IMG/VR virus record: IMGVR_UViG_3300007171_000012
Length of the DNA stretch: 64,000 nt
From: an uncultured virus (IMG/VR IMGVR_UViG_3300007171_000012)
Lineage: Duplodnaviria > Heunggongvirae > Uroviricota > Caudoviricetes
Direction: 5' to 3' (one strand)
The position numbers were made by a program, and so were the translations under genes. Shown here in pieces: positions 5,906 to 18,833 of this stretch. How positions within the stretch are numbered: position 1 is the stretch's first letter; every line of letters starts with the position of its first letter. Below the pieces are notes generated by a model. The model did no database searches, was not told the DNA's origin, and saw only the letters and a list, made by a program, of their open reading frames with translations.

Positions 5906-6542
5906 TTAGATTGTCTAAAGCCCATAGGGGTTGCAGATTACTATAATGACATAGCTTTTCTGCTTCCTCTGGGGTTTTAGCCGAAGACAAAGGAATGATA
6001 TGGTCAATATGCCATTCGCCTCTATTATCCCATGTCATTCCTTCTTGGAAAAGAGATTCGATATGAGCTTTTACGGTTTCCCATTCTGCGCCCAACATAA
6101 GCATCGTTTTTGAGCATTTCGACCAACCGTTTTTCTTAAAGCAGATATTTACACGACAGCGTAATCTCTCCTTCAAAGCGAACATGATGTCTTCTTTTCT
6201 TTTTTTAGCTTTGTATTCTCTGTTGTTTCTTTTGCCTTCGTCAGTGCGCGAATACTCCCTTTTGTAAGCAGCCCTCTTCATTAAGAAGTCTGAATCGCTT
6301 TCTTTTTTTTGTTGATACCAATCTTTGCTCTTTTCTCGATATTTTATATTCTCCAATTTTGTAACCTCCTTACCTTGTGGAGTAGATCGAAATCTTTTTC
6401 TTCTTTCATTTCTTAATTCAAGAAGTTCTTTTTCTCTTTCCACTTTTGCAGGGTCAATGCTTAATAATTCTTTTTTTCTTGCTCTTTCGCAAGGGTAACA
6501 TCTAGACTCTACTGGCTGTTGGCATTTTTTGCAAACCTTCAT
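5868..6542 (-). CDS. HNH homing endonuclease-like protein
   Basis: CKKC...CYPC, then GMTWDNRGEWHIDHIIPL...HYSNLQPLWALDNLIK. Confidence 0.9.
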   Translation of the reverse strand: MKVCKKCQQPVESRCYPCERARKKELLSIDPAKVEREKELLELRNERRKRFRSTPQGKEVTKLENIKYREKSKDWYQQKKESDSDFLMKRAAYKREYSRTDEGKRNNREYKAKKRKEDIMFALKERLRCRVNICFKKNGWSKCSKTMLMLGAEWETVKAHIESLFQEGMTWDNRGEWHIDHIIPLSSAKTPEEAEKLCHYSNLQPLWALDNLIKADSMPSDLRQ

Positions 6543-6637
6543 AATATATATTACACCAAAAGTCTGTATTTATGGGCAGCGTTTTTCTCCTTTTTCCTAT
6601 TGACACGCCCTCTTCCAGCAATTAACTTTTCCCCGAC

Positions 6638-7048
6638 ATGAAACCTCTCAACTACATCATCAGCACCAACGGCCTTGGCATCGCAGTCGGCATCGTTGGC
6701 GACAAGACTCTCGCCCAGCGTGATGCAACCCTTGCAGAAAACATCTATGGATCAAATACATCAGACCATTTGTTTGCTAGTCTTATTTACATGGCTAGTG
6801 TGCAGCAATTCAAAAAATTCCTTACGCTGAAAGAATACTTCTTGATTTGGGACGAACATTGGGGCAAAAACAAAGTCGCAGGTCGTCGCGATCCCGCCCT
6901 GATCATGCAGTTTACTCGCCGCGCCATCAAACGCGCCCGACTCATTATGGAAGCAAACGTTTCTTTTGAGAATTTTATGCAAGGAATGTCTGCTCGCAAC
7001 AACGAATATCAAATTGGCGGCTATCAGGACGAAGCAGCCGCCGAGTAA
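6638..7048 (+). CDS. hypothetical protein
   Basis: 136 aa; TTGACA-N17-TAACTT lies 8 nt before the ATG. Confidence 0.7.
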   Translation: MKPLNYIISTNGLGIAVGIVGDKTLAQRDATLAENIYGSNTSDHLFASLIYMASVQQFKKFLTLKEYFLIWDEHWGKNKVAGRRDPALIMQFTRRAIKRARLIMEANVSFENFMQGMSARNNEYQIGGYQDEAAAE

Positions 7049-7347: not shown

Positions 7348-7424
7348 GTAAGTCGTTGAGTGTGAAGGGGTTACGGAGGCGCGGCCCCCCTGCCGCTGTA
7401 AGTCGTTGATTTTCAATCACTTAC
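7348..7424 (-). repeat. 77-bp double-palindrome element, copy 1 (apparently inverted)
   Basis: GTAAGTCGTTGA-GTG-TGAAGGGGTTAC + 23-bp GC spacer + GTAAGTCGTTGA-TTT-TCAATCACTTAC. Confidence 0.85.
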
Positions 7425-7666
7425 AACAGATCTCGCATTTCCCAATCTTCGTCATCCATCAGAACGTCAACGGGGTCGCCCGCGCCGATCATGCGGTCGA
7501 TGTAGTCGCCCATTTGTTCTTTCATATTTGCCTTGACACGCGCCCTTGCATCGAAATGCAGACGATTGCGGCGGCAGTAGGCACAAGAGCCATGATTGCG
7601 ACATGACCAGTCAAAGCGGCGGCTGTCAAACTTTTTCGGATATTTTTTGCTTGTGGAACGGCTCAT
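7421..7666 (-). CDS. hypothetical Cys/His-motif protein
   Basis: SCRNHGSCAYC motif; its stop codon falls inside element copy 1. Confidence 0.7.
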   Translation of the reverse strand: MSRSTSKKYPKKFDSRRFDWSCRNHGSCAYCRRNRLHFDARARVKANMKEQMGDYIDRMIGAGDPVDVLMDDEDWEMRDLL

Positions 7667-7667
7667 T

Positions 7668-8018
7668 TTATTGGGGGTTGGTGGCGTAGATCATGCGGCC
7701 CTTGATGAAAACTCTGTCGGCGGTGTCAACATATTTTTGACCGTCGTAGAATTTTTCCAGCTTGTAAGGGTTGTATGTGATCAAATCCATCCATTCGTTG
7801 AGATTGGACTGACCTTCAAAAATCGTGCCGCAGATGTAGGCATGCACGTTTTTTCTTTTGTTTTTAATTACACGCTGGCGACCCTTTTCGGATACCTTGA
7901 AAACAACATCCGTCAGCGAGATGGATTGGCGGTGGCGCACGACTTTCCACACGCCATTCACTTTGGCTTGAACAGAAAGGAGTTTCTTTGCGAGGTTGAA
8001 GTAAACGCGGACTTTCAT
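7668..8018 (-). CDS. hypothetical phage protein
   Basis: VRVYFNL...GRQRVIKNKRKNVHA...YNPYK; own promoter TTGCAC-N17-TACATT. Confidence 0.8.
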   Translation of the reverse strand: MKVRVYFNLAKKLLSVQAKVNGVWKVVRHRQSISLTDVVFKVSEKGRQRVIKNKRKNVHAYICGTIFEGQSNLNEWMDLITYNPYKLEKFYDGQKYVDTADRVFIKGRMIYATNPQ

Positions 8019-8067
8019 GGCGGGGGAAATGTAATAGAATGAATGAATTTGTGCAAGCTTTTTTTGA

Positions 8068-8238
8068 TTAAAAAGGGCCGTCGTCTTCTGGGTGCCGCTG
8101 ATCTTCGCCCTGATAAAAAGGATTCTTTTCCCATGTATCCCAGCTTGACAAGATCCATTGTTTATCTGGATTTTCCATGCCGAAGATTTGGCGCTGCTCT
8201 TCGATTGCTTCGTGAATGATGTGTTGTCTTGCGTCCAT
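8068..8238 (-). CDS. 56-aa hypothetical protein (not in ORF track)
   Basis: MDARQHII...QWILSSWDTWEKNPFYQGEDQRHPEDDGPF. Confidence 0.65.
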   Translation of the reverse strand: MDARQHIIHEAIEEQRQIFGMENPDKQWILSSWDTWEKNPFYQGEDQRHPEDDGPF

Positions 8239-8248
8239 GTGGAAGAAT

Positions 8249-8650
8249 TTATTCGGTAGCGATCACCATGTCAAACGGAATCTCAACAAAACGATCCATC
8301 TCTTGCACCATAGCGATAGATTGGCGATCTGAATCAAAACGATTCTCCACGATGTAGCGACGGATAACCATATCATATTTCGCGCAGAAATCATAAAACC
8401 TTTTGCTTGTTCCAAACCACTTGCGCAGTTTGTTCAGTGAGCAAAAGCCATATCGAGAAAAATCGTTATGATATTTTCCCAATCCATTGTGAAATGGACT
8501 AAGATGATAATCCTCGCTGAATCCCATATCTAAATACTCCCTGACTAAAGCGCAGAAGTAGCGTCGAAAACCTGTTTCATGGTCATGGGTCAGGTGATTG
8601 TAAAAGCCAATGCGAGTCTCTTTGTTTTCGAGGCGATACAAGAAGGGCAT
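8249..8650 (-). CDS. hypothetical protein
   Basis: 133 aa; TTGACC-N16-TAGTCT lies 6 nt before the ATG. Confidence 0.7.
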   Translation of the reverse strand: MPFLYRLENKETRIGFYNHLTHDHETGFRRYFCALVREYLDMGFSEDYHLSPFHNGLGKYHNDFSRYGFCSLNKLRKWFGTSKRFYDFCAKYDMVIRRYIVENRFDSDRQSIAMVQEMDRFVEIPFDMVIATE

Positions 8651-8709
8651 GCGGAAAGACTAGCAAAAGGATTTGGTTGGTCAACTTTTTTTTGTGATTT
8701 TTTTCCGCT

Positions 8710-8786
8710 GTAAGTCTCTCATTTTCAAGGACTTGCGCACGCGGGGCGGCCCCGCCGTCGTAACTCGTTGATACTCAGCGAGTTAC
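8710..8786. repeat. 77-bp element, copy 2
   Basis: Palindromes at 8710-8736 and 8760-8786 with a 23-bp GC spacer; orientation ambiguous. Confidence 0.85.
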
Positions 8787-8796
8787 GCAGGGATTT

Positions 8797-8988
8797 TTAG
8801 GACAGAACCGCTTCAATTTTCTTGACAACCTCTGGCAGATCATGCATGTCGAAAGGCGCAGCCTCGCCCACAACTCCGTCAGAGATAGGGTAAACCCTCA
8901 AAGACATAACTTTACAGTTATCATGTTCTGCATTCACCAAGAACTGGCCGACTTCAGTTTCCAACAGGGTCTGAAAGATTTTCTTCAT
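8797..8988 (-). CDS. small hypothetical protein
   Basis: 63 aa; own TTGCTT-N16-TAGCCT promoter. Confidence 0.6.
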   Translation of the reverse strand: MKKIFQTLLETEVGQFLVNAEHDNCKVMSLRVYPISDGVVGEAAPFDMHDLPEVVKKIEAVLS

Positions 8989-9049
8989 CGCTTAAAGCAG
9001 GCTACCAGAGAAAGCAGGAAAAGCAAGAGAATTGTGATTTTAGGGTCCA

Positions 9050-9766
9050 TCAGATGGCACCTCCATTTTCAGGCTCTAGCACAAAGCCTGTCAAGTCTTT
9101 TTTAGCGCGGCCCTTTTCCACAAGGCCGATGACCTTCCCCTTGCCATCCAGAAAGCGGGCATCCGTTTCGTCACCGTTCACAACGTCCGCGCCAAATGCA
9201 CGGGTGGGCAGGCTCTTGCGAAACACGACGGCCACATTGCCACCAGAGCGCAAGACGCTTTCGACAATTGCGTTCGGCGTGTTCTCCTTGCGCGAGAAAG
9301 TCAAATGGTAATTTGCGGGCATTTCGCCAGCGAGGAAAGCCGACATGCGGGAAAGCGTGGCGGTGTAGTCATAGAACTGGACCGAGGGGAAAAGCTCGAA
9401 AATGTTCTTGCCATCGTGACGAATTTTTTCCCATGGAAGGTCCGACGTAAGATTGAGACGGAAAGCCGCTTGCATGCCATTTTTGTTTGCTTTTTTAACG
9501 GCTGCCGCGATTTCCTTCACAAGCTGCTTCATGAAAGCCGACTTGTCGGAAAAGAAAAGGCGAGTTTTTGCGATTCGTGCCTGCTGGACGGTCGAATAAA
9601 CTCCCATGCCCGCCGTGTTGAGGCATGCCGCTGCGCATCCTGCGGACGCATCTTTGCAAGTATTGAAGCCCGACAGATTGGAAGGTGCAAGGTGGATTCC
9701 AAAGGTGGAGAAACCGAGCTTTTCGCCCTTGCGGATTTTGGTGTTGGAAGTGGTGAGAAGTTTCAC
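9050..9766 (-). CDS. Gp88-like phage protein (Cys cluster, radical-SAM-like)
   Basis: NTKIRKG...LAP...NTCKDASAGCAAACL...FRLNLTSDLPWE...FYDYT...YHLTFS...GNVAVVF...GDETDARFLD; GTG start 6 nt after TATCTT. Confidence 0.75.
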   Translation of the reverse strand: MKLLTTSNTKIRKGEKLGFSTFGIHLAPSNLSGFNTCKDASAGCAAACLNTAGMGVYSTVQQARIAKTRLFFSDKSAFMKQLVKEIAAAVKKANKNGMQAAFRLNLTSDLPWEKIRHDGKNIFELFPSVQFYDYTATLSRMSAFLAGEMPANYHLTFSRKENTPNAIVESVLRSGGNVAVVFRKSLPTRAFGADVVNGDETDARFLDGKGKVIGLVEKGRAKKDLTGFVLEPENGGAI

Positions 9767-9880
9767 GGCCACAAGATACCAAGCGGCCCGAGCTTTGCAA
9801 GCGTTTTCTGCATCTTTTCCGAAAAAACTTTTCTTGAGAAAATGCTTGACAAGAAAAAAAACAGAAAAAAAACTTGACAC

Positions 9881-9957
9881 ACAACTCGTTGATTATCAGG
9901 GACTTACGACGGCGCGGGGGCCGCGCCCGCGTAACTCGTTGAGCGTCAACGACTTAT
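9881..9957 (+). repeat. 77-bp element, copy 3
   Basis: Palindromes at 9881-9907 and 9931-9957; spacer GACGGCGCGGGGGCCGCGCCCGC. Confidence 0.9.
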
Positions 9958-9991
9958 ACCGATTATTTTTTTGCTTGACAAATGCAAGAAC

Positions 9992-10014
9992 TGCGCCCCG
10001 CTTTCGCGGGGCGC
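9992..10014 (-). terminator. GC-rich hairpin after the DUF932 gene
   Basis: GCGCCCCGC-TTTC-GCGGGGCGC (GAAA loop on the minus strand); no clear U-tract. Confidence 0.5.
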
Positions 10015-10026
10015 AGCCTTTCGCCG

Positions 10027-10821
10027 TCAGCCCATCACCACCAGAGGCTCGATGTCTTCCGTTCCAGCGTCGGCTGGGTCGATGTCAACAACAATCTGCG
10101 GGCGATGTCCCGCGATGCGGTCAAAAACGCTTTGCGCGGTCATCGTGCGGAACGGCAACTTGCTAAGGTCGCCACCTTTGAGATTTTCCGTGATGGAATT
10201 GTAAAGGGTCCAGAGGGTGCCACCCTTGAATTCTTCGTGACGAGGATTGCGGAATTCCTGAACGGCACTGTAAATGTCGCGAGCGGGGAAAGCCTTGGCG
10301 TCCACAAGGTCGATGAGAAGATCAGCGGCACGATCACGGGAAATTTCCGTCTGCTTGTAAAGGGAGATACGGTTTTCCATGTCATTCCAATGAGAAACCA
10401 CGCGGGCGACAGCATCCGACAGCACGCGGGGAAGATCCGCGATGATGTTGGTAGTATGGCGGCGGGCGAGCTTCACATCAGAAGAGAAGCAAAGATTTTC
10501 ACAGACCAGCATGCGATTGCCGATGCACACGCTGGCGGCGAAGCTCTTGTCGTGAGCATTGCGCAAACCGAGAACGATTTCGCGATCCGCGCCAGTAATG
10601 TCAAGACCCTTGAGGGCAAAGCCGCCGAAGTAACGCTGGCCACCACGGGCAAGCGAATGCTCTTCAAGACCGACTTCAAGACCAGCGCGGGCGATGGCAT
10701 CGCGGGTGAGATTCACAAGCTGGGCGTGTGGAATCGGAGTGAACGAATCGGTGCGCTCAGGAGTCTGCACGCCGACGAGTTGTTCAGAGGAAACCTTGTT
10801 CTTTGCGATGATGAGGGCCAT
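10027..10821 (-). CDS. DUF932/DUF945-family protein
   Basis: LRNAHDKS...RMLVCENL...RRHT motifs typical of the family. Confidence 0.8.
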   Translation of the reverse strand: MALIIAKNKVSSEQLVGVQTPERTDSFTPIPHAQLVNLTRDAIARAGLEVGLEEHSLARGGQRYFGGFALKGLDITGADREIVLGLRNAHDKSFAASVCIGNRMLVCENLCFSSDVKLARRHTTNIIADLPRVLSDAVARVVSHWNDMENRISLYKQTEISRDRAADLLIDLVDAKAFPARDIYSAVQEFRNPRHEEFKGGTLWTLYNSITENLKGGDLSKLPFRTMTAQSVFDRIAGHRPQIVVDIDPADAGTEDIEPLVVMG

Positions 10822-11001
10822 AATGTTGTGGGATTGGGAGTTGGAGTTGGTGCGCCGTCAGTGGCGATGGGGAAAGAATAGCACAGGACGCAGCAGAGTC
10901 AACACGTTTTTGATTGTTTTCGCGTTTTTAGGTGAGAAAAAAGACTGCGCATTTTTTGCTTTATGCTTGACAAACGCCTGTCAATACTTTTTTTTGCATG
11001 C

Positions 11002-11078
11002 GTAAGTCGTTCATTATCAACGAGTTACGACGGCGCGGGGGCCGCGCCTCCATAAGTCTTTGATACTCAGTGACTTAC
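11002..11078 (+). repeat. 77-bp element, copy 4
   Basis: Palindromes at 11002-11028 and 11052-11078. Confidence 0.9.
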
Positions 11079-11123
11079 GAGGCTGGTTTTTTATTGATTT
11101 TTTTTCTTGACAAGCGGAGAGCC

Positions 11124-11142
11124 GCGCCCCCTTTCGGGGGCG
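11124..11142 (-). terminator. GC-rich hairpin with GAAA loop (minus strand)
   Basis: CGCCCCC-TTTC-GGGGGCG immediately after the gene stop. Confidence 0.5.
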
Positions 11143-11152
11143 AGGCCGATAT

Positions 11153-11572
11153 TCAGTGCGAAACCTCCTTGACAAGCGATCCGCAGCGGAAGGTCACGAC
11201 CGCATCCTTGTGAGCGGAAGCCCACTTTTCGGTATTGCGGTTGACGAAGGGGACATAGCCCGCATCGCGCACAGTGTCAACACCGCCTTTCAGAAGACGC
11301 TGATACTTGTCCTTGCCGTTAATGACGCGGGTGGTTCCGTCCTTCTTGACAAAGGTGATGGAAAAGAACTTGCCCTTGGTTTCAGCGATCAGGTTGTCGA
11401 GTTCGACTTGCATGGTTTTGGTCATTGGTTTGGTTTCTACTGGTTTGGTTTTGGAAAGGCGATATTCTGTGATGAACGTGTGAATGGTGAGGAAGATGAC
11501 GAGGGCGGTGATCGTGATGATCAGGCCGTAAAAGGCGAAGGCGAAGATGGCGGCGACGGTGGATTCTTGCAT
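11153..11572 (-). CDS. protein with N-terminal TM helix and SH3/WYL-like C-terminal domain
   Basis: Hydrophobic N-terminus; FFSITFVKKDGTTRVING motif. Confidence 0.6.
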   Translation of the reverse strand: MQESTVAAIFAFAFYGLIITITALVIFLTIHTFITEYRLSKTKPVETKPMTKTMQVELDNLIAETKGKFFSITFVKKDGTTRVINGKDKYQRLLKGGVDTVRDAGYVPFVNRNTEKWASAHKDAVVTFRCGSLVKEVSH

Positions 11573-11611
11573 TTGGTTTGGTTAGTTGCGGGTTGCGGTT
11601 ACGGGGAAAGA

Positions 11612-11824
11612 TTAAGCGTTTTGGGCGCGCCTGTCAACACTATTTTTGAACTTTCTTTTCAAAAGATCGGCGGCTTCTTTGCGATCCACGAAAACGCTGG
11701 CAGCTTCGTTTCCATTGGTAAAAATCACAAGTGGACGGGCAGGTGTGCGGAAAGCATGAAGAGTGAAAAGCGGGGTTTCATAAGTTTTGCAGTTGCCCGT
11801 CTTGCGGATGGTGTAGCGTGTCAT
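11612..11824 (-). CDS. small hypothetical protein
   Basis: MTRYTIRKTG...; TTGCAA-N17-TACTCT promoter. Confidence 0.6.
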   Translation of the reverse strand: MTRYTIRKTGNCKTYETPLFTLHAFRTPARPLVIFTNGNEAASVFVDRKEAADLLKRKFKNSVDRRAQNA

Positions 11825-11953
11825 GGCGGGGACAGAGTAGCATCGGCGGGCGGGTCTTGCAAGAACTATTTTGCATTTTTCCAAGAAAAAAAAGCTGCGC
11901 ATATTTTGCTTTATGCTTGACAAGAGCGTGTCAAGAACTTTTTTTTATGCTGT

Positions 11954-12030
11954 GTAACTCGTTGATTATCAAGGACTTACGACGGCGCGGGGGCCGCGCC
12001 CGCGTAACTCGTTGATCTTGAGTGAGTTAG
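11954..12030 (+). repeat. 77-bp element, copy 5
   Basis: Palindromes at 11954-11980 and 12004-12030; spacer identical to copy 3. Confidence 0.9.
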
Positions 12031-12075
12031 GCAAGGGAGCCACCACAACTCCCTTGCCATTTTCACCGTGCCATG

Positions 12076-12564
12076 TCAACCACGAAATTTCACAAAATCT
12101 TCGGCCAGACTATTGATGATCTGTTCAAGAAACAAATTTCCGCCCTCTGTCTGAAAAGAGCTTGACTTTTCGATTGCATCCCAAGGAAAGATTTCCTTTT
12201 GATTGGCGAAGTTTTCGTCGTCTTCATCTTCGGCTAGCAGAGCGAGGCAAAGAGTTTCGGCACTCCATTCTTGAGGCCAACTGGACAGAAAGTGCGATGC
12301 GGCTTTTAGATACGCTTCCGCATGGATAGGATTACGCAGATCAAGACCATGAGTAAAATCTTCATTTACTTTGATGATTGGGGGAGGTTCGGGCAATTGC
12401 TTTAGGCTTGCGACGTATGCATCGGCGGTTTTGGCCATGCGAGTCAATTCGGTATAAGCTGTATCCCTTATACAAGCATTTTTGTTTTGATGAGAGGAAA
12501 GAAGAAGATCGAGGACGCTTTCCCATGTGGGGGTCATGTCAATAGTGTTTGTTGCGGCAGGCAT
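12076..12564 (-). CDS. acidic hypothetical protein
   Basis: 162 aa; TIDMTPTW N-terminal motif. Confidence 0.7.
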   Translation of the reverse strand: MPAATNTIDMTPTWESVLDLLLSSHQNKNACIRDTAYTELTRMAKTADAYVASLKQLPEPPPIIKVNEDFTHGLDLRNPIHAEAYLKAASHFLSSWPQEWSAETLCLALLAEDEDDENFANQKEIFPWDAIEKSSSFQTEGGNLFLEQIINSLAEDFVKFRG

Positions 12565-12662
12565 TTTTTTTGATTTGTTTCTTTTTGTCAGTGTGACGAA
12601 TGACAGGCGGTGGGAAATGGAGCCTAGGCTTCGCGGCGGGGATTGTCAAGGTGATTTTCATC

Positions 12663-12845
12663 TTAATCTTCTTTTTCGGACCATTCCTTCGGAAGCCAAG
12701 CTTGGCGCAGTTCTTTTCTGATTGCTCTTTTCAAAGCATCCATGTCATAAGCGTTTGTCCTATGACCGATGCCGCTACTCACGATGATTTCTTCCAGCGA
12801 ATTATTCACACGCTTTTCGAAATTCATTTTGTTTTTGAGTTCCAT
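12663..12845 (-). CDS. small hypothetical protein
   Basis: MELKNKMNFEKR...; TTGACA-N17-CACACT promoter. Confidence 0.55.
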   Translation of the reverse strand: MELKNKMNFEKRVNNSLEEIIVSSGIGHRTNAYDMDALKRAIRKELRQAWLPKEWSEKED

Positions 12846-12886
12846 GACGGAGACAGTGTGCGGGATTTGAAGCAGCTTGTCAACAA

Positions 12887-13210
12887 TTAAACGGGAATTC
12901 TCAAGCGTGCGGGAATTTTCAACACTTGGCACCACTTGCGCCAGTTCTGGCCATGGAGGCTTCGGCGGCTGCCGACATAGTAAGTGCCACGCTCGCGAAA
13001 GTCAAGCAAATGCGCCAGCTCATGCAAGAAAACTTCGCGAAACAATCCGAAAGACGCAAGAACATTTTCCGACAATTGGATTTTTGATTCTTCGGCATGA
13101 GCCAACCCGAGAAAACGTTTTGATTGCATCCATTCCACACGCACCGAGGCCATGCCCCACTCTTTGAGAGTCAGGCGGATGTATTGGTCAACTTCGTGCG
13201 CGGTGAGCAT
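12887..13210 (-). CDS. SprT-like zinc metalloprotease
   Basis: LGLA...FLHELAH...HGQNWRKWC. Confidence 0.8.
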   Translation of the reverse strand: MLTAHEVDQYIRLTLKEWGMASVRVEWMQSKRFLGLAHAEESKIQLSENVLASFGLFREVFLHELAHLLDFRERGTYYVGSRRSLHGQNWRKWCQVLKIPARLRIPV

Positions 13211-13276
13211 GAGCAAAGTCTGTCAGGATTTAAGCAGTATGGCAAGAGTTTTTTTTGATTATTTTGTGCTTGACAC

Positions 13277-13353
13277 GTAAGTTGTTGATTATCAAGGACT
13301 TGCGCGGCGGCGGGGGCCGCGCCTTCGTAACTCGTTGAGCGTCAACGAGTTAC
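13277..13353 (+). repeat. 77-bp element, copy 6
   Basis: Second palindrome has perfect arms: GTAACTCGTTGA-GCG-TCAACGAGTTAC. Confidence 0.9.
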
Positions 13354-13364
13354 ACACGCCCAGC

Positions 13365-13925
13365 TTAACTTATGCCCTGCCATAACTTAACTTCATAAGC
13401 TCGTCGGATAACTAGTCCACGCAATGTCTTACCTGCGGCCTTAACATAAAGAGGAAGCAACTTAGGCACGCTATCATAGTTGCCGCTATTAAGTCGATTC
13501 TTACCGTTAATCAGAGCGTCAAGACAATTTTCATTTGTGTTATGAGTAAAGCTGACAAGCGCGGCAAGCTGGTATTCCGTAAGTTTGACCTTAACCTTAG
13601 ACAGAACCAGTTTTTTTGTTTCAATCAATTCTTGCTTGAGGATAAACTCTGCTGTGGATATGCTCATGCTATTGCCAGCATATTTACCAGTGTGTCCATA
13701 TCCAACAGTCAAGATGCCAGCAGGACAACGATAAGGCTGCGCACGATATGACTCGAAACTCTTAACTTTTTCCGTCATTTTAGAAAACCATTGCACCTTA
13801 TGCTTTGGCGCAACAAGGACAGGATAGTTTTTAATGTTTTTAACTATCTGAACGCTTGGCACTGTCTGAATAGACAGCGCGGCAACAATTCCTGCGATAG
13901 TGGCGGCGAGCATGAGTTTTTTCAT
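13365..13925 (-). CDS. GH24 (T4-type) lysozyme with N-terminal signal/SAR-like segment
   Basis: FESYRAQPYRCPAGILTVGYGH (E-x8-C-x5-T), ALVSFTHN, LRGLVIRR; hydrophobic MKKLMLAATIAGIVAAL. Confidence 0.88.
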   Translation of the reverse strand: MKKLMLAATIAGIVAALSIQTVPSVQIVKNIKNYPVLVAPKHKVQWFSKMTEKVKSFESYRAQPYRCPAGILTVGYGHTGKYAGNSMSISTAEFILKQELIETKKLVLSKVKVKLTEYQLAALVSFTHNTNENCLDALINGKNRLNSGNYDSVPKLLPLYVKAAGKTLRGLVIRRAYEVKLWQGIS

Positions 13926-13967
13926 GATCAAAAGATTAATGCGGGGATAGAACCCGCGCAAGGTTTT

Positions 13968-14099
13968 TTATGGGATAAAATCGAGTTCTTCGATGTTGAC
14001 GATTTCTTCGCCTCCATCATCGAATGAAATTTCGGCTTCATTTCCTTCGATTCCTTCGACGGCGACGACTTGATTGCGGTAGATTGCGAATGCGAGCAT
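13968..14099 (-). CDS. 43-aa acidic peptide (not in ORF track)
   Basis: MLAFAIYRNQVVAVEGIEGNEAEISFDDGGEEIVNIEELDFIP; own promoter. Confidence 0.6.
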   Translation of the reverse strand: MLAFAIYRNQVVAVEGIEGNEAEISFDDGGEEIVNIEELDFIP

Positions 14100-14147
14100 G
14101 GTGGTGAGGTGTCGGTTGACGGGGAAAGAGTAACTCGGGCGAACGGA

Positions 14148-14282
14148 TTAAGCAACTTCTTTTTCGTCTTTTTTGCAGAATTCTTCAGTCCATTGGGACA
14201 CTTCATCTGCGAGAGCTTCAAAGCGGCCAGTGGCTGCGATCAGTTCGGTGATCCAAGCTGGGGTTTCGGTGACGTTTTCCAC
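14148..14282 (-). CDS. 44-aa hypothetical peptide
   Basis: GTG start 6 nt after TTGCGC-N17-TATTCT. Confidence 0.55.
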   Translation of the reverse strand: MENVTETPAWITELIAATGRFEALADEVSQWTEEFCKKDEKEVA

Positions 14283-14408
14283 GCGCGAAGAATACAGCGG
14301 CAATCGACTAAGCGCAAGACTTTTTTTTGCTATTTTTCGCAGAAAAAAAGCTGCGCATATTTTACTTTGTGCTTGACAGATCATGATTTAGCCCATGACA
14401 TATCGTTT

Positions 14409-14485
14409 GTAAGTGCTTGATTATCAACGACTTACGCGGGCGCGGGGGCGTTAGCCGCGCAACTCGCTGATGTTCAACGAGTTAC
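14409..14485 (+). repeat. 77-bp element, copy 7
   Basis: Palindromes at 14409-14435 and 14459-14485. Confidence 0.9.
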
Positions 14486-14497
14486 GATGTTATTTTT

Positions 14498-14704
14498 TTA
14501 CTTGACTATTTTCAAGAATGTGCGGCTACAGTATTCAATGCGGTCTTTATGGCGATGACCATCGAGCCAAGCGGTGAAAGCGGCGAGAACACTTTCGTCG
14601 GTATTTTCAGCGTGACGAAGATTGACATCGAAAAAGTGATGACCAAGGGCGCGACCTTCCGAACTGACATGCAGTTGCTTGTAAGAAATGCGAGACAGGA
14701 ACAT
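14498..14704 (-). CDS. small hypothetical protein
   Basis: 68 aa; TCGACA-N16-TACTCT promoter. Confidence 0.6.
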   Translation of the reverse strand: MFLSRISYKQLHVSSEGRALGHHFFDVNLRHAENTDESVLAAFTAWLDGHRHKDRIEYCSRTFLKIVK

Positions 14705-14758
14705 GTGGTGATGGGGAAAGAGTAAGAAAAAAAGTCTTCTTGTCGAGTGTTTTTTTGT

Positions 14759-14950
14759 TTATTTTTCAACCAGCGACCAGAAACCCGATGAACTAGGGTA
14801 TCTCTTCAGAAAACCAAGAGTTTCCAACTGCTTTATTGTATTCAATTGCGCGTCGGTGTAGGCGAAAACAAGTCGCTTGCCATTGCCGAAATCTTTAGTT
14901 GGAGGATTGGCCAAAAACCTTTTTTGATTGCCTGTGAGTTTTGTTTTCAC
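14759..14950 (-). CDS. small hypothetical protein
   Basis: GTG start 6 nt after TTGCTC-N17-TACTCT; MKTKLTGNQKRFL... Confidence 0.6.
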   Translation of the reverse strand: MKTKLTGNQKRFLANPPTKDFGNGKRLVFAYTDAQLNTIKQLETLGFLKRYPSSSGFWSLVEK

Positions 14951-14993
14951 GCTAAAAGAGTAATCGAGCAGAGGCTTATGAGCAAGCTTTATT

Positions 14994-15161
14994 TTACAGA
15001 TTGGCGAAAAATTCTTCGGCTTGAGAGGCACGGCTGGCGGTGTTGAAAGCCTCTTCAAGAGTTTCAGCGGCTTCCCATTCGGCTTGCGCGAAAGCGGCAG
15101 CATCTTCAAACATAGCAAGCAACTCCAGAGAGTCAGGGGTGGCAAGAAAGTCAATCGACAT
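14994..15161 (-). CDS. 55-aa acidic helical peptide (not in ORF track)
   Basis: MSIDFLATPDSLELLAMFEDAAAFAQAEWEAAETLEEAF...; TTGCGA-N16-TAATAT promoter. Confidence 0.65.
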   Translation of the reverse strand: MSIDFLATPDSLELLAMFEDAAAFAQAEWEAAETLEEAFNTASRASQAEEFFANL

Positions 15162-15269
15162 GTGTAGATATTACCAGCGGGGCGGCAGATCGCAAGAAAA
15201 AAATGTTTTTTTTTATTTTTTTACTTTTCTGCTTGACAGATAGAGAAAAACATGATGATTCATTCGTTC

Positions 15270-15346
15270 GTAACTCATTGATTTTCAAAGACTTGCATCT
15301 TCGCGGGGGCCGCGCCTGCGTAACTCGTTGATAGTCAGTGAGTTGT
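15270..15346 (+). repeat. 77-bp element, copy 8
   Basis: Palindromes at 15270-15296 and 15320-15346. Confidence 0.9.
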
Positions 15347-15417
15347 GGCTTTTATTTTTTTTCTTGACAAGGTGCGGCTGGCCCCCACCACAAGGGCCAG
15401 CCTTTCCCACCATGCCA

Positions 15418-15669
15418 TCACACCGCAAGGTCAATGCCTGCGATGTGGAGATTGCGAAACTTGCTTTCTCCGCCGTCGTCAATGTCGCGAGCCTTGACGG
15501 TCACGTAACGCTTGCCATTCTTGGCGAAGCCGACATGATCGACAGCTTCAACCTTCAGGACGCGCACGCCATCCTTTTTGATGCTGGATTTTTCGGCGAG
15601 GTAGCGGACAGTCTTTCCAACAAGAGCGGAAGCGATTTCGACAGCGGGTGCAGAGTAGTTGAGGAACAT
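15418..15669 (-). CDS. small beta-rich (SH3/WYL-like) protein
   Basis: 83 aa; GKTVRY...VRVLKVE...FRNLHIAGI. Confidence 0.55.
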   Translation of the reverse strand: MFLNYSAPAVEIASALVGKTVRYLAEKSSIKKDGVRVLKVEAVDHVGFAKNGKRYVTVKARDIDDGGESKFRNLHIAGIDLAV

Positions 15670-15725
15670 TGGATTGGTTTGGTTGACGGGGAAAAAGTAA
15701 GCGAGAAACAGCAGGGATGCAAGAT

Positions 15726-15944
15726 TTATTTTGCAAGAAACATATTCACAAGGCCCAGATCAGCTTTTTCGAAAGAGATGTATTTGCATGTTCCCTTGAC
15801 AATAATTCCAGGATTTGCAAGTTTGAATTCGCGAGCAATCTTTGGCGTTACGGTGACAGTCAACCCGTTGCGCAGCGCGGGAATGATAAAAGGATAGTTG
15901 CTTTCAATTGGCTTAAACGTGCGGGTAAGAGCTTCGGGGAACAT
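15726..15944 (-). CDS. small hypothetical protein
   Basis: MFPEALTRTF...; TTGCAT-N17-TACTCT promoter. Confidence 0.6.
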   Translation of the reverse strand: MFPEALTRTFKPIESNYPFIIPALRNGLTVTVTPKIAREFKLANPGIIVKGTCKYISFEKADLGLVNMFLAK

Positions 15945-16081
15945 GGTGGCGATTGCTGGTGACAGGGACAGAGTAACCCACTGGACCAACGAATGCAAGA
16001 TGTTTTTGCATCTTTTTTTGATCTTTTTTTTCTGCATTTTATTGTTGACAGATGCACCAAAGCATGATGATTCGCACATCT

Positions 16082-16158
16082 GTAAGTGATTGATTATCAA
16101 GGACTTACGCGCACGCGGGGGCTTTGCCTTCGTAACTCGTTGATAGTCAACGACTTAT
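16082..16158 (+). repeat. 77-bp element, copy 9
   Basis: Palindromes at 16082-16108 and 16132-16158. Confidence 0.9.
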
Positions 16159-16218
16159 GTAGGCTATGAGAAAAGGAAAAGAATCTTCCCTTTCGGGAAG
16201 ATTCCCCTTGACATGCGC

Positions 16219-16500
16219 TTAGAAGTCGCCGCAGCAGCCCTCCATGCCATACTCGCTCTGTTCCTCCCAGTAGGAGTCGAGGTAGCTGTCCTCTCGACCG
16301 TTATCGCCCTCACGCTCATAGAGCGAAGCCCAATAGGCTTCATCCTCTGCCTCACGCAGTTCATCCGATTCTTCGTCGGGCGTCCAACCCGAAGGCTCGG
16401 GGTCGGGGATATTGGCGTTGGCCTCGTCGGCCATCTCCTGCATGACGGAGGTGTATTCTTCGAACTCGGCGGAATCGGCGGGGAATGGGAGCATGCTCAT
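16219..16500 (-). CDS. highly acidic 93-aa protein
   Basis: About 29 D/E, 3 R and no K by manual count; TTGCAA-N17-TAATCT promoter; hairpin at 16181-16204 downstream. Confidence 0.7.
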   Translation of the reverse strand: MSMLPFPADSAEFEEYTSVMQEMADEANANIPDPEPSGWTPDEESDELREAEDEAYWASLYEREGDNGREDSYLDSYWEEQSEYGMEGCCGDF

Positions 16501-16671
16501 GGTAGTGGTGGGTGAGAGGAGGTGGGAAGGCCCGCCCTGCGGGACGCCCACAGATTACCTCGGGATGGACTGCATTGCAACATCTTTTTGATTCTTTTAT
16601 TCAGAAAAAATGCTATGCGTATTTTGCTTTTTGCTTGACAACATGCTGTCAAGCGTTTTTTTTGTAGGCTC

Positions 16672-16748
16672 GTAAGTCGTTGATTTTCAACGAGTTACAA
16701 CGGCGGGGGAGCCGCGCCTGCGTAAGTCGTTGATGTTCAGTGACTTAC
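16672..16748 (+). repeat. 77-bp element, copy 10
   Basis: Palindromes at 16672-16698 and 16722-16748. Confidence 0.9.
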
Positions 16749-16800
16749 AGAGGAACTTTAACATATCTTTGGAGTTATGTCAAAGATATGTCGTGACATA

Positions 16801-17037
16801 TCACACGGGCGCACCCGCTGGCAGCGTGTCAAGGTAGGCGGCGACACGGGCCTCGTATGCAGCACGCTTTTCCTTCCATTCCTTTTCCGTGATGGTGTGG
16901 ATGGTGGCCATGCGCTCAGGCGTAGGGTGAAACTTAACCCATCCTTGCAGAGCTTGGAATTTGACGCGCTCTCCTTCCCATCCAAGGAAGATGCCCATGT
17001 TCGTGAAAGTGCCAACGGCTGTGGTGGTGATGTCCAT
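16801..17037 (-). CDS. small hypothetical protein
   Basis: MDITTTAVGTF...; TTGCTT-N17-TACATT promoter. Confidence 0.6.
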   Translation of the reverse strand: MDITTTAVGTFTNMGIFLGWEGERVKFQALQGWVKFHPTPERMATIHTITEKEWKEKRAAYEARVAAYLDTLPAGAPV

Positions 17038-17077
17038 GCGTGTGAATGTAGAGGATGAAGAAGAGAAAAGCAAGGAT

Positions 17078-17251
17078 TTATTTCGCCAATTTGATTTCGG
17101 TGATCGTGTAGTCAACGCCCTCGATGTAGTAGGGCCACGCGCTTTTCATTTCTTTTTCTGCGGCCTCGATGCTCCAACGGATGCCGCGAGCAGCGATTTC
17201 GAGGACGAGAGGCTTCGAATCGTTCTTGAAGAGAATGGTGACGAGATACAT
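17078..17251 (-). CDS. small hypothetical protein
   Basis: MYLVTILFKN...; TTGCAA-N17-TACTCT promoter. Confidence 0.6.
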   Translation of the reverse strand: MYLVTILFKNDSKPLVLEIAARGIRWSIEAAEKEMKSAWPYYIEGVDYTITEIKLAK

Positions 17252-17321
17252 GGCGGAAGAGGTGGTGCTGCTCACGGGGAAAGAGTAATGCAGGGGTTGA
17301 ATCTTTGCAAGCTTTTTTTAC

Positions 17322-17639
17322 TTACTTTTCGACAATTTCGAAAACGGTCGTCTTGTATTCGCGCACCGTGCAGAAAGTTTTCGTTGTGATTTGATTCCAA
17401 GGAATCACATTTTCCACAACCGCACCATAGTTGCAGTATTGAGCAAGTCCATGTGCAGTGGGAATGCCCGTGACTTCATCGCCCACGGCATAGGTTTTGA
17501 CTTGGCCGTAACCATAGTCGCGTGTGAACTCTACGTTTGCAAAGTATTTGGTTTCGTATTTTTCAGTGGCTTTGCCAGCGGTTTCAAGAGCGATAGCTTC
17601 GAACTGTGGCTTGATGCGGGGCAGGATGGTCGGCGTCAT
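17322..17639 (-). CDS. hypothetical protein, first gene of the leftward array
   Basis: MTPTILPRIKPQFE...; TTGCTT-N17-TACTCT promoter. Confidence 0.65.
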   Translation of the reverse strand: MTPTILPRIKPQFEAIALETAGKATEKYETKYFANVEFTRDYGYGQVKTYAVGDEVTGIPTAHGLAQYCNYGAVVENVIPWNQITTKTFCTVREYKTTVFEIVEK

Positions 17640-17974
17640 GTGGTGGTGGTGGTGGTGAACAGGGACAGAGTAACCTAGTAAGCTGATGAAAGCAAGAACT
17701 CTTTTGCATTTTCTGAGAAAAAAATGAAGAAAGTTTGTTGTTTTATGCTTGACAAGTGACCCCTCCCCCCATTTCTCAGAAAAAATCAAGGGTTGAGTGT
17801 TTAAGAAACCGAGGGGGGACACTAATCTAAATCTCTAAATCTCATTTCAGTAAACACATACATCTGGGGGCCAGCCCCCTCCCCCCCCTATTATCCGAAA
17901 CGTTTTGCATTCTCTATAAAATTACCCCAAAACCATCTGAAAAAAAATCCCAGCCCCCTTTTTTGCAAAACCTT

Positions 17975-17983: not shown

Positions 17984-17988
17984 AAAAG

Positions 17989-18810
17989 ATGTCAGTCATA
18001 ACATACCAAAACATCCCAGTGATAGCTTCTTCTCCTCGCGGCAACTTTTATTACGCTGCGGCAACCAATGCAACCATCAGCGCACAAAACAGATTAGAAG
18101 CGTCACGCATTCTGGCCCCAAACCAAAACAACAACTATCGTATTGGCGGCGAACTCAATTCCAAGATCAGCATAACATTCGCGGCAGTGAATAAATCAAA
18201 AGGGTCAGACACTTGGAACTTTGCATCTGGAGTGTTAAACGATCTTACAGGACAATCTGGCACCAACATTATCATTGGCGGCAACACTTTTAGTGGGTGC
18301 TATTTGGAAAGTGTGTCTCTTGACATTGCCCCGTTTTCTCCAGTAATGGTCAGCGCAGATTTTACTTGTTTAAATCCTCCAACAGGCACCGCATTTAGTG
18401 GATCGGGCGTGGGCTTCACAGACAACTTGACTGACAGCATTGCTTATGGTTTTTATACTGTGATTACCAACGGCACAACATTTTCAGATGCAAACCGTGA
18501 AAGTATTTCATACAAAATCAATTGCGACCGCAGCTACACAACCAGCATTGGCCGCACCAGCCCCAACAATGCATTCTTGAATGGCGTCGAAAAAGAATTA
18601 AACATCAAATGCCACAATATCGGCGCGTATATTAATTATAGTGGATACGGCGGCATTATTAATATTGACCCGAAAAACATTAGCGGGCAATCTATCGTAA
18701 GTGGTGGGTTTGGAATGTCCGCAAATTGCAAATTAGTTTCGCAGAATATATCTGTTCAAGAGGGCGATGTTTTAATGGCAGATATTTCATTAAGAGAAGT
18801 CGTTTTGTAA
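17989..18810 (+). CDS. putative virion protein (tail-tube-like paralogue)
   Basis: Beta-rich, S/T/G/N-rich; GCYLESVSLDIAPFSPV resembles the motif in the tube genes. Confidence 0.5.
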   Translation: MSVITYQNIPVIASSPRGNFYYAAATNATISAQNRLEASRILAPNQNNNYRIGGELNSKISITFAAVNKSKGSDTWNFASGVLNDLTGQSGTNIIIGGNTFSGCYLESVSLDIAPFSPVMVSADFTCLNPPTGTAFSGSGVGFTDNLTDSIAYGFYTVITNGTTFSDANRESISYKINCDRSYTTSIGRTSPNNAFLNGVEKELNIKCHNIGAYINYSGYGGIINIDPKNISGQSIVSGGFGMSANCKLVSQNISVQEGDVLMADISLREVVL

Positions 18811-18833
18811 TTTTCGCGTGTAAATAAATATGA

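What the first reader, a model, noticed from the sequence alone, without database searches (positions are those of the whole stretch)
7348..16748. Cassette array punctuated by ten fixed-geometry 77-bp double-palindrome elements
Seen: ten copies start at 7348, 8710, 9881, 11002, 11954, 13277, 14409, 15270, 16082 and 16672. Each is GTAA(G/C)TCGTTGA-N3-TCAACGA(C/G)TTAC (27 bp), then a 23-bp GC-rich spacer (consensus GACGGCGCGGGGGCCGCGCCYGC), then a second 27-bp palindrome. The 50-bp palindrome-to-palindrome distance is invariant although bases drift, which points to selection on geometry. Copies recur every 0.6-1.4 kb and separate blocks of 1-4 unrelated, self-promoted small genes. None were seen outside 7.3-16.8 kb. 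Inference: either an integron-like modular platform (recombination/exchange sites for accessory genes) or a repeated nucleoprotein scaffold on the first-injected DNA. No integrase is visible in the window.
Basis: partly seen in the sequence, partly recalled or inferred. Interest (0 to 1): 0.9.

Follow-up and report, generated by a model that had tools for sequence, protein, structure and literature searches.

The report
Paired bending-site palindromes between phage cassettes
An uncultured long-tailed phage separates its small early genes with ten copies of a 77-base module made of two near-identical palindromes around a GC-rich core; the palindromes look like docking sites for a DNA-bending protein rather than hairpins, the same palindrome turns up in bacterial chromosomes and mobile elements, and in nature gene blocks are gained and lost by recombination within these modules.

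Summary
Ten 77-bp elements (27-bp palindrome, 23-bp GC-rich core, 27-bp palindrome) lie at the stated coordinates. None is expected by chance and none occurs elsewhere in the window.

They sit between minus-strand early or accessory gene cassettes of an uncultured siphophage. The palindrome is shared by many IMG/VR contigs.

Across 214 distinct copies the two arms do not covary, so it reads as a double-stranded protein site, not a hairpin. Its half-site, W-a-TCAA-CGAs-TTA, is a symmetrised IHF (DNABII) consensus with the two kink steps 9 bp apart.

The same palindrome occurs in bacterial genomes where IHF sites classically sit: next to tRNA/integrase junctions, an IS transposase gene, RepA iterons and dnaA. 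The phages encode no DNABII protein, recombinase or transposase.

Contigs from other samples show one cassette lost exactly between two elements and extra DNA joined inside a third. The crossover points vary, which indicates homologous rather than site-specific recombination.

Best reading (about 0.4): paired host-factor bending sites that fold or insulate early cassettes and, as repeats, drive PeSL-like shuffling. The integron reading is rejected.

Caveats: the binding protein is inferred, the motif is sporadic among host genomes, and its inner arms also serve as tRNA terminators.

The parts
7348..7424 (.). Element E1: P1 (right arm degenerate, GAGTGTGAAGGGG type), GC core with a C-run, P2. 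It is the last element of the array, next to periodic AAATAA repeats.
   Evidence: The same degenerate P1 variant sits at the array end in G003 (140300) and G004 (31563).
8710..8786 (.). Element E2
   Evidence: The stop codon of the upstream gene (8797) lies 11 nt from P2. A minus-strand promoter, TTGACC-16-TAGTCT, starts at 8684.
9881..9957 (.). Element E3
   Evidence: It aligns with orthologous elements of G002 and G003. Contigs of runs X1, X2 and X6 break inside it.
11002..11078 (.). Element E4
11954..12030 (.). Element E5
   Evidence: Contigs break inside it at 11986-12011.
13277..13353 (.). Element E6. Other populations have additional DNA joined inside it.
   Evidence: Loose ends at 13286 (X1, X2) and 13338 (X1, X2, X5).
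14409..14485 (.). Element E7, left partner of a natural cassette deletion
   Evidence: Joint 14460 to 15322, skipping 861 bp, which equals the E7-E8 distance (run X6).
15270..15346 (.). Element E8, right partner of the same deletion
16082..16158 (.). Element E9
16672..16748 (.). Element E10. A minus-strand promoter-like site, TTGACA-17-TAAAGT, reads into it from 16783.
7421..17822 (-). Array of small early or accessory genes. It includes an L5 gp82-like gene (7668-8018), GP88 family (9050-9880), DUF932 (10027-10821), SprT-like (12887-13216) and a lysozyme (13365-13961). GC is 0.45-0.52, against 0.33-0.39 in the rest of the phage.
11834..11862 (-). Example of the conserved early promoter family, TTGCAA-17-TACTCT followed by GTCCCCG and a start codon a few bases later. 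Relatives of it lie at 17310, 11637, 10902 and 8684.
   Evidence: These promoter repeats are themselves rearrangement breakpoints (17281 and 15962/17667).
11869..11953 (+). Conserved left flank of the elements (repeat D5): a T-rich stretch, the invariant GCTTGACAAG box about 30 nt before P1, its inverted partner, and a T8 run. The box lies on the strand antisense to the genes.
   Evidence: (19 of the 23 plus-strand CTTGACA copies in the window lie in the array)
9989..10018 (-). Gene-end hairpin with a GAAA loop, between the stop of the DUF932 gene and E3. Similar hairpins lie at 16177-16208, 12031-12057 and 15376-15402.
4686..7048 (+). Conserved left flank of the array: an 86-aa ORF, a RuvB-like AAA+ protein with a winged helix (5006-5905), an endonuclease VII-like gene on the minus strand (5868-6542) and a 136-aa ORF (6638-7048).
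17989..20725 (+). Conserved right flank, divergent from the array: a 273-aa ORF, PhoH (18834-19562), a Zn-ribbon ORF and a 233-aa ORF. The 233-aa ORF takes, by gene order, the place that a sigma-70 region-2 protein holds in G003; homology between the two was not tested.

Best explanation
Each 27-bp palindrome (P) is a double-stranded DNA docking site for a dimeric protein. The most likely reader is a host DNABII (IHF/HU-family) DNA-bending protein, because P is a mirror-symmetric version of the IHF site. An element is therefore two sharp-bend sites held 48-60 bp apart by a stiff core that averages 82% GC. It sits in the gap between the end of one early cassette and the promoter of the next. 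Bound, it would fold that gap into a compact nucleoprotein knot. This knot would separate neighbouring, strongly transcribed cassettes (architectural or insulating role; inferred). Because the modules are repeated about every kilobase, general homologous recombination between them deletes, inserts and reshuffles cassettes, as PeSLs do in T4-like phages. Shown: the elements exist; the family is widespread; the arms do not covary; the position relative to genes; natural recombinants at the elements; the absence of recombinases. Inferred: which protein binds, and what the folding achieves.
For: Evidence that P is a protein site and not a hairpin:
- In 214 distinct palindromes, arm positions pair no more often than independence predicts. 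At position 5 the pairs are CG 60, CC 52, GG 47 and GC 38, giving Watson-Crick 98 against 99.9 expected.
- T>C changes at position 9 are never compensated (0 of 44).
- The same holds for P1:P2 pairing, and the loops are complementary in only 3 of 89 elements.
- Predicted RNA folds differ between the ten copies.
- A position that is G or C but never A or T fits minor-groove reading.

Evidence for IHF likeness:
- The half-site logo from 195 phage and 95 bacterial palindromes is W(76-78%)-A(45-50%)-TCAA-CGAs-TT-A.
- That is WATCAA starting at the centre and TTR four bp further on.
- The TT and AA steps lie exactly 9 bp apart across the dyad.
- These are the features listed for IHF sites in the passages read from PMC1874591.

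Evidence from context:
- The pattern occurs in 73 bacterial loci, against about 2 expected by my estimate.
- There are 8-11 sites per genome in two Verrucomicrobiota, an Akkermansia and a Fibrobacter genome, and 0 for the reversed control.
- Sites lie 5-15 nt after tRNA or tmRNA genes, beside tyrosine integrases and direct repeats (L184, L204, L236, L242).
- Sites lie 85 bp upstream of an IS transposase gene (L254, L258), beside RepA iterons (L256), and upstream of dnaA and argS.
- By textbook knowledge, these are the places where IHF sites are used.

Other points:
- No DNABII gene is found in G001-G004, whereas Akkermansia has 5.
- Up to four palindromes sit side by side in G002.

Evidence for recombination:
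- An in-register E7/E8 deletion, and junctions inside E6 in two studies.
- In G003, the whole module is swapped between flanks that are 97-100% identical.
- The cassette order is shuffled relative to G002.
Against: - No binding was tested, and the IHF parallel rests on a consensus match plus contexts recalled from textbook knowledge.
- P carries about 37 bits of information, far more than E. coli IHF needs. The conserved CGAs, C and G positions have no counterpart in the IHF consensus.
- P is sporadic. At up to 2 mismatches it is found in only 5 of 151 sampled genomes of one phylum, which suits a lineage-restricted or mobile reader better than a universal one.
- No P lies near the four Akkermansia DNABII genes whose loci were scanned.
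- The host of the phage is unknown. Related contigs are binned into MAGs labelled as three different taxa.
- The distance from P1 to the next promoter is not constant: P1 sits roughly 74 to 148 bp upstream of the start site. A simple promoter-activation geometry is therefore not supported.
- In G003 some modules work without palindromes.
- The inner arms form ordinary terminators after tRNA genes.
Confidence: 0.4

Rival explanations
1. The palindromes are operators or roadblocks for a phage-encoded regulator of unknown fold. This regulator would silence the early array at the switch to middle genes, as mycobacteriophage stoperators or phiC31 conserved inverted repeats do.
For: The sites are confined to the early array in the window, G003 and G004. 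They have very high information content and dyad symmetry, and they form clusters of 2-4 sites. Some promoters read straight into an element (16783 and 14515; the TTGACA-16-TAnAnn-10-P arrangement in G002 and G003). Most phage proteins have no recognisable family.
Against: The same 27-bp palindrome lies in bacterial chromosomes at core genes (dnaA, argS), in IS copies and beside plasmid iterons, all without this phage. No HTH, RHH or other DNA-binding regulator was detected among 150 Pfam-scanned and 108 PHROG-scanned ORFs of the complete relative; the only DNA-binding-type domains found were sigma-70 regions, a C2H2 zinc finger and RuvB winged helices. DUF932, which always accompanies the elements, does not track P among 151 genomes.
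Confidence: 0.2
2. The element acts as RNA or single-stranded DNA. It would form three hairpins, or one long hairpin, that terminate, pause or stabilise the early transcripts in both directions.
For: All ten copies fold far better than shuffles (z from -1.9 to -7.0). Some relatives have cores with clear tetraloop hairpins and different stems (58/60-bp class; 9 of 81 cores have z below -2). The inner arms followed by a U-run are evident intrinsic terminators right after 17 tRNA or tmRNA genes among 60 bacterial loci. In E2, E6 and E7 the upstream stop codon is only 11-13 nt from P2.
Against: There is no covariation in the arms, with mismatches in about half of the copies at position 5. Sequence is conserved while pairing is not. 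The core orientation flips within one genome (G002; contig of L130-134). No U-tract abuts the palindromes in the phage, and the T-runs are on the antisense strand. By my own rough tally of the gene maps, about 10 of 25 bacterial copies lie in divergent promoter regions. Rfam has no match.
Confidence: 0.13
3. The element is a small non-autonomous mobile element (MITE, REP or REPIN-like) that spreads into intergenic gaps.
For: There are many copies. It has an inverted-repeat architecture of two palindromes around a core. It occurs in either orientation in G002. Presence or absence differs between near-identical flanks in G003. Its occurrence across bacterial genomes is sporadic, including copies inside an IS.
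Against: There are no target-site duplications at the ten copies. No Y1/RAYT transposase and no DDE transposase hit was found in the phage records. The G003 difference is a replacement of one module by another, not a clean insertion. Elements at corresponding positions are orthologous between relatives.
Confidence: 0.05
4. The array is an integron-like platform, and the elements are sites for a site-specific recombinase that excises and inserts cassettes.
For: The layout is cassette-like. An in-register deletion lies between two elements. P lies next to integrases in bacterial integrative elements.
Against: No tyrosine or serine recombinase is found in four records, including a complete genome. 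The cassettes carry their own promoters. The 3-bp centre does not fit the 6-8-bp (tyrosine) or 2-bp (serine) crossover regions; this point is recalled knowledge. Crossover points differ between events: the centre of E6, and the start of P2 for E7/E8. Another event uses promoter repeats.
Confidence: 0.03

Closest known systems
IHF (DNABII) binding sites, e.g. the lambda attP H' site; consensus WATCAANNNNTTR (passages read in PMC1874591)
   Same: WATCAA starts at the site centre and TTR follows 4 bp further on. Two AA/TT steps lie 9 bp apart. The conserved region of about 27 bp fits inside a footprint of about 34 bp. The degeneracy (S, W) is of the minor-groove type. P is used beside att sites, IS ends, iteron origins and dnaA.
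   Different: P is perfectly symmetric, with both halves carrying the consensus. It also conserves CGAs, C and G, giving about 37 bits. It comes in pairs around a GC-rich core. No A-tract element is present. Binding was not tested.
PeSLs (promoter-early stem-loops) of T4-like phages (abstract of PMC4122927 read; PMC2839356 seen in the search listing only)
   Same: These are repeated composite intergenic modules between small, variable early genes in a hyperplastic region. They serve as points of homologous exchange that add, remove and swap genes.
   Different: PeSLs are a terminator stem-loop plus an early promoter. Here the repeated unit has in addition two sequence-conserved palindromes that do not behave as stem-loops. 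The phage is an unrelated siphovirus.
17-bp dyad repeat of Cluster O mycobacteriophages, TGTTCGGNNNCCGAACA (passages of PMC4351075 read)
   Same: It is a dyad motif with a 3-bp centre, present in more than 30 copies. The copies lie mostly between or at the starts of small genes of a long leftward operon, with no orientation bias. Its function is unknown.
   Different: It has 7-bp arms, not 12-bp arms. It is not paired around a GC core. The sequence is different. It has not been reported in host genomes.
Stoperators of Cluster A mycobacteriophages (abstract of PMC9283540 seen) and phiC31 conserved inverted repeats (recalled; pointed to by earlier finding e1-6222728)
   Same: Many copies of one protein site are spread through intergenic gaps of early regions. 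The bound protein acts on transcription elongation.
   Different: Those sites are read by the phage's own immunity repressor in temperate phages, and stoperators are asymmetric. Here no repressor or integrase is found, and the site also occurs in bacterial chromosomes.
BIME/RIP (RIB) elements of E. coli: REP palindrome, IHF site, REP palindrome (recalled, no call)
   Same: It is a mosaic extragenic repeat of about 80-100 bp built from two palindromes and a central piece. It is linked to IHF and lies after transcription units.
   Different: The arrangement is the reverse: there the palindromes are hairpin-forming REPs and IHF binds the centre. Here the palindromes look like the IHF-type sites and the centre is GC-rich.
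Integron attC sites and cassette arrays
   Same: Imperfect inverted repeats punctuate an array of unrelated small genes.
   Different: There is no IntI. The cassettes have promoters. The arms are conserved in sequence rather than in structure. The crossovers are not at a fixed base.

Membership tests
Integron (attC cassette array) | Adjacent IntI-type tyrosine recombinase | tested here: not met
   PF00589 gives 0 matches in G001-G004, including the complete G003. None is found in the window ORFs scanned.
Integron (attC cassette array) | Mostly promoterless cassettes expressed from one Pc promoter | tested here: not met
   There are 15 minus-strand promoter-like sites inside the array, including a conserved TTGCAA-17-TACTCT family.
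Integron (attC cassette array) | Sites conserved in folded structure, not sequence; recombination at one fixed position | tested here: not met
   The reverse holds: sequence is conserved and pairing is not. Natural junctions lie at different positions.
PeSL-type recombination modules | Repeated intergenic terminator/promoter composites between variable small early genes | tested here: met
   Gene-end hairpins, repeated flanks and promoters surround each element. The array differs in content and order from G002.
PeSL-type recombination modules | Indels and swaps between relatives have their ends in the repeats | tested here: met
   The E7/E8 in-register deletion, the junctions inside E6, and a translocation ending in promoter repeats. 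A module swap lies between identical flanks.
PeSL-type recombination modules | Homology to the T4-like PeSL sequence and phage group | tested here: not met
   No DNA match to any cultured phage. The terminase is at most 28% identical to those of Firmicute phages.
IHF/DNABII binding site | WATCAA near the centre, TTR 4 bp downstream, two AA steps 9 bp apart | tested here: met
   Half-site logo compared with the passages read in PMC1874591. A at +1 is present in only 45-50% of half-sites.
IHF/DNABII binding site | Bound and sharply bent by a DNABII protein | not testable with these tools
   This needs EMSA, footprinting or ChIP. The phage has no DNABII gene, and an Akkermansia genome with 11 sites has 5.
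IHF/DNABII binding site | Low-information, asymmetric site with an A-tract in the other half | tested here: not met
   P is symmetric, carries about 37 bits, and has no A-tract. If it is a member, it is an unusual symmetric 'super-site'.
Stoperator/CIR-type repressor sites | Phage-encoded repressor, with the sites restricted to the phage | tested here: not met
   No repressor-like domain was found. The sites are present in bacterial chromosomes.
REP/REPIN with RAYT | Y1 (RAYT) transposase in the genome; hairpin-forming units | tested here: not met
   PF01797 gives 0 matches in G001-G004. The arms do not covary.
Intrinsic terminator | Stem-loop directly followed by a U-tract on the transcribed strand | tested here: not met
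   In the phage, the T-runs start 5-9 nt after P2 and lie on the antisense strand. The feature is met only for the bacterial tRNA-linked copies.

The most novel reading that the evidence does not exclude
The 27-bp palindrome is an unrecognised, cross-phylum 'super-site' for a symmetric DNABII-type bending protein. Phages, integrative elements, IS elements and plasmids would carry it as a portable DNA-folding module. This phage group strings about 20 copies through its early-gene array, either to recruit (or titrate) the host's architectural protein and fold each cassette boundary into an insulating knot, or to organise the first DNA to be expressed. The same repeats make the array a self-shuffling library of accessory genes.
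Probability: 0.25. Interest if true: 0.8.

Novelty: new variant of a known kind. Interest (0 to 1): 0.62.

Why it matters
The finding matters in three ways if it holds.

- It would give a concrete, testable DNA motif for an architectural protein in poorly studied phyla. Akkermansia and Fibrobacter are cultivable and carry 8-11 chromosomal sites.
- It would show a way in which a lytic phage uses arrays of host-factor sites to organise its early region.
- It extends the PeSL idea, that repeated intergenic modules drive gene shuffling, to an unrelated and widespread group of aquatic siphophages. Here there is direct population evidence of cassette gain and loss at the repeats.

It also warns that a cassette-array look does not imply an integron.

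Tried and rejected
- Near and distant DNA searches of cultured phages with the array or one element found nothing relevant.
- Rfam at a permissive threshold gave only a chance snoRNA hit.
- Literature searches by sequence words returned primers only.
- The earlier-findings look-ups by place and by sequence were empty.
- No RNA holder was listed among the public runs, so transcript ends could not be examined.
- I could not validate the plus-strand CTTGACA boxes as promoters, because no consistent -10 lies 16-19 bp downstream.
- Core-hairpin test: only 9 of 81 cores fold clearly better than shuffles (mean z -0.5). The hairpin is therefore a subfamily trait, not a defining one.
- No target-site duplications were found.
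- DUF932 was tested as a candidate reader of P. It is present in 29 of 151 genomes but in none of the five with P.
- Possible autoregulatory P sites at Akkermansia DNABII genes: none at the four loci scanned.
- Host assignment failed. Related contigs are binned into MAGs labelled Verrucomicrobiales, Flavobacteriaceae and Enterobacterales, and the window has no tRNA.
- The window's own assembly is not held, so the whole genome could not be scanned. A 99.8% identical 32-kb fragment and three relatives were used instead.
- Supplementary files of the cited papers were not opened.

Full report
**What is there**

At up to 5 mismatches there are 20 palindromes, forming ten pairs at the stated starts. 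Each pair is exactly 50 bp apart, and there is nothing elsewhere in the 64 kb. A repeat search independently finds a ten-copy family.

The window is a phage. It encodes a terminase, a 3132-aa tape measure protein, PhoH and ribonucleotide reductase. It has no close cultured relative.

The array region is richer in GC (0.45-0.52) than the rest of the window (0.33-0.39). Its genes lie on the minus strand, as Pfam confirms for an L5 gp82-like gene, GP88, DUF932, SprT and a lysozyme. Promoter-like sites are mostly on that strand, 15 against 6. They include a conserved TTGCAA-17-TACTCT-TCCCCG family with start codons a few bases downstream.

Reading along the genes, each element lies after the upstream gene's stop, or after its GAAA-loop hairpin, and 30-115 bp before the next promoter.

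**A widespread family**

- A 32-kb IMG/VR record is 99.8% identical to the window.
- Record G002 is about 70% identical and has the same flanks, with about 13 elements.
- G003 (148 kb, rated complete) has 7 elements and G004 has 6, always within the small-gene array.
Of these, 77 carry the full palindrome at up to 3 mismatches. Fifty-six have a second copy within 70 bp.
- The spacings are 48 (8 cases), 50 (27), 51 (7), 52 (6) and 58 (7), with a few others.
- The core between the palindromes differs from genome to genome. It averages 82% GC over 81 distinct cores, and only 9 of these fold clearly better than shuffles.
- In G002, and in another contig, the core occurs in both orientations.

**Hairpin or protein site?**

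As single strands the elements would fold strongly. However, four copies fold as three hairpins and six as one long hairpin.

More telling, the arms do not covary. In 214 distinct palindromes, position 5 is G or C in each arm independently: CG 60, CC 52, GG 47, GC 38, with paired 98 against 99.9 expected. The 44 T>C changes at position 9 are never compensated.

Pairing between P1 and P2 is no better, and the loops are complementary in only 3 of 89 elements. At the G/C positions, complementarity is in fact below expectation. In the window, the two G/C positions flanking the core carry the same base on the same strand in 10 of 10 elements (my reading).

Sequence is conserved while pairing is not. 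That is the signature of a double-stranded site read by a dimer.

**Which protein?**

The half-site logo is W-a-TCAA-CGAs-TTA-C-g. This places WATCAA at the centre and TTR four bases on, with TT and AA steps 9 bp apart across the dyad. These are the features given for IHF sites in the passages I read of PMC1874591. That text also states that recognition is through the minor groove, which would explain a position that accepts G or C but not A or T.

A scan of 185,579 bacterial genomes for the 23-bp core pattern gave 73 loci, where I estimate about 2 by chance. Twenty of them match the full 27-mer at up to 1 mismatch.

Four genomes carry 8-11 copies each at up to 3 mismatches, and none for the reversed control: an Akkermansia, a Fibrobacter and two Verrucomicrobiota. 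A fifth genome searched, a Cytophagaceae MAG, has one copy.

The contexts of the bacterial copies are telling:

- 17 of 60 loci have the palindrome 5-15 nt beyond a tRNA or tmRNA gene.
- Several of those are followed by direct repeats and a tyrosine integrase (L184, L204, L236, L242).
- In one genome the palindrome travels with an IS, 85 bp upstream of the transposase gene.
- One copy sits beside iterons upstream of a RepA gene.
- In Akkermansia, copies lie upstream of dnaA and argS.

From textbook knowledge, att arms, IS ends, iteron origins and dnaA/oriC regions are where IHF sites are found. The phage records encode no DNABII protein, while the Akkermansia genome has five.

**Caveats to that reading**

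- Nothing was bound in a tube.
- The motif holds about 37 bits, much more than E. coli IHF specifies.
- At up to 2 mismatches it is present in only 5 of 151 sampled genomes of one phylum.
- No copy lies at the four Akkermansia DNABII genes whose loci were scanned.
- DUF932, a constant companion of the elements in phages, does not track the motif in bacteria.
- The inner arms followed directly by U-runs are plain terminators after tRNA genes in unrelated bacteria. Five of the 17 are one Bacteroidales operon.
- The host of the phage is unknown.

**Recombination**

No tyrosine or serine recombinase and no Y1 transposase is found in G001-G004. None is found among the ORFs scanned with Pfam or PHROGs.

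Yet the array is plastic. Compared with G002, genes are missing, added and re-ordered.

In G003, two near-identical copies of a 5.7-kb stretch differ by replacement of the whole palindrome module. The replacement is a palindrome-free AT/GC-core/AT module, between flanks that are 97-100% identical.

Contigs of four DNA runs from three studies were laid on the array:

- One joins 14460 to 15322, skipping 861 bp. This is exactly the E7-E8 distance, with the crossover at the start of P2.
- In two studies, contigs run into E6 from either side and then continue into other sequence (13286/13338).
- A third rearrangement moves 17335-17654 next to 15962. Its ends lie in the shared promoter sequence, not in an element.

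The crossover positions vary, and plain promoter repeats are also used. This points to homologous recombination between repeats, as described for PeSLs in T4-like phages (abstract of PMC4122927), and not to an integron-like system.

**Verdict**

The element is best read as a pair of DNA-bending-protein sites around a stiff core, placed at cassette boundaries of the early array. The effect on the phage, whether insulation, folding or recruitment, is inferred.

The repeats demonstrably act as recombination substrates.

The rivals are an unknown phage regulator (0.2), RNA hairpins (0.13), a MITE-like element (0.05) and site-specific recombination (0.03).

I found no description of this palindrome in print by sequence search. 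The nearest described things are IHF sites, PeSLs, the Cluster O 17-bp dyad and stoperators.

Noticed in passing
L161-L168 (G003): 17577-23281 vs 141906-147652: The 'complete' 148-kb relative carries a 5.7-kb stretch twice at 96.5% identity, and 16269-16998 vs 140993-141721 at 67%. It looks like a wrap-around assembly of two strains of a genome of about 124 kb rather than a true terminal repeat. The two copies differ in whether the intergenic modules have palindromes.
   Followed up: partly
window 8684, 10902, 11637, 11862, 17310 (minus strand): A conserved early promoter family, TTGCAA/TTGACn-16/17-TAnTCT followed by (G/T)TCCCCG. Start codons lie only about 6-25 nt downstream, giving near-leaderless messages. 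These promoter repeats are themselves rearrangement breakpoints.
   Followed up: partly
window 7300-17950, plus strand: CTTGACA(A/G), a perfect -35-like box usually preceded by a T-rich stretch, occurs 19 times on the strand antisense to the genes, of 23 plus-strand copies in the window. The reverse complement occurs only 6 times in the array. No usable -10 follows. GCTTGACAAG is invariant across three genomes about 30 nt before P1. Its purpose is unknown.
   Followed up: partly
window 7200-7340: Periodic (G)CAAATAA repeats at roughly 10-11-bp intervals lie next to the last element, E1. Similar AAATAA-rich stretches sit beside the matching end element in G002, G003 and G004. They could be curved DNA, an origin or an end-of-array signal.
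   Followed up: no
window 12031-12057 and 15376-15402: Two gene-end hairpins share the same 9-nt loop (TTGTGGTGG on the coding strand) but have entirely different stems. This is true compensatory change, unlike the palindromes.
   Followed up: no
L182, L191, L202, L219, L221, L223, L228, L233, L237 and others: Hairpins with the same inner arms (sTCGTTGA-N3-TCAACGAs) followed at once by a U-run terminate tRNA and tmRNA genes. They occur in unrelated bacteria (Bacteroidales, Flavobacterium, Chitinophaga, several Proteobacteria), more often than I would expect by chance. The reason for this arm sequence is unexplained.
   Followed up: partly
window, all ten elements (P1 position 23 and P2 position 5): The two G/C positions that flank the core carry the same base on the same strand in 10 of 10 elements (C/C seven times, G/G three times). 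They can therefore never pair. Across 89 elements of the family, complementarity here is below expectation (29 against 44).
   Followed up: partly
L212, L215, L188 (bacterial MAG contigs): Contigs with palindrome arrays and homologues of the window's GP88, DUF932 or RuvB-like genes are binned into MAGs labelled Verrucomicrobiales, Flavobacteriaceae and Enterobacterales. They are probably phage contigs mis-binned, so these labels cannot be used to name the host.
   Followed up: partly
window 37930-47328: The tape measure gene encodes 3132 aa, which implies an exceptionally long tail. The relative G003 has a 6-kb counterpart.
   Followed up: no
L254, L258, L262, L266 (genome G007): Six identical copies of the palindrome in one Verrucomicrobiota chromosome belong to an IS with a 401-aa DDE transposase. 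The palindrome lies 85 bp upstream of the transposase gene, well inside the repeated unit.
   Followed up: partly
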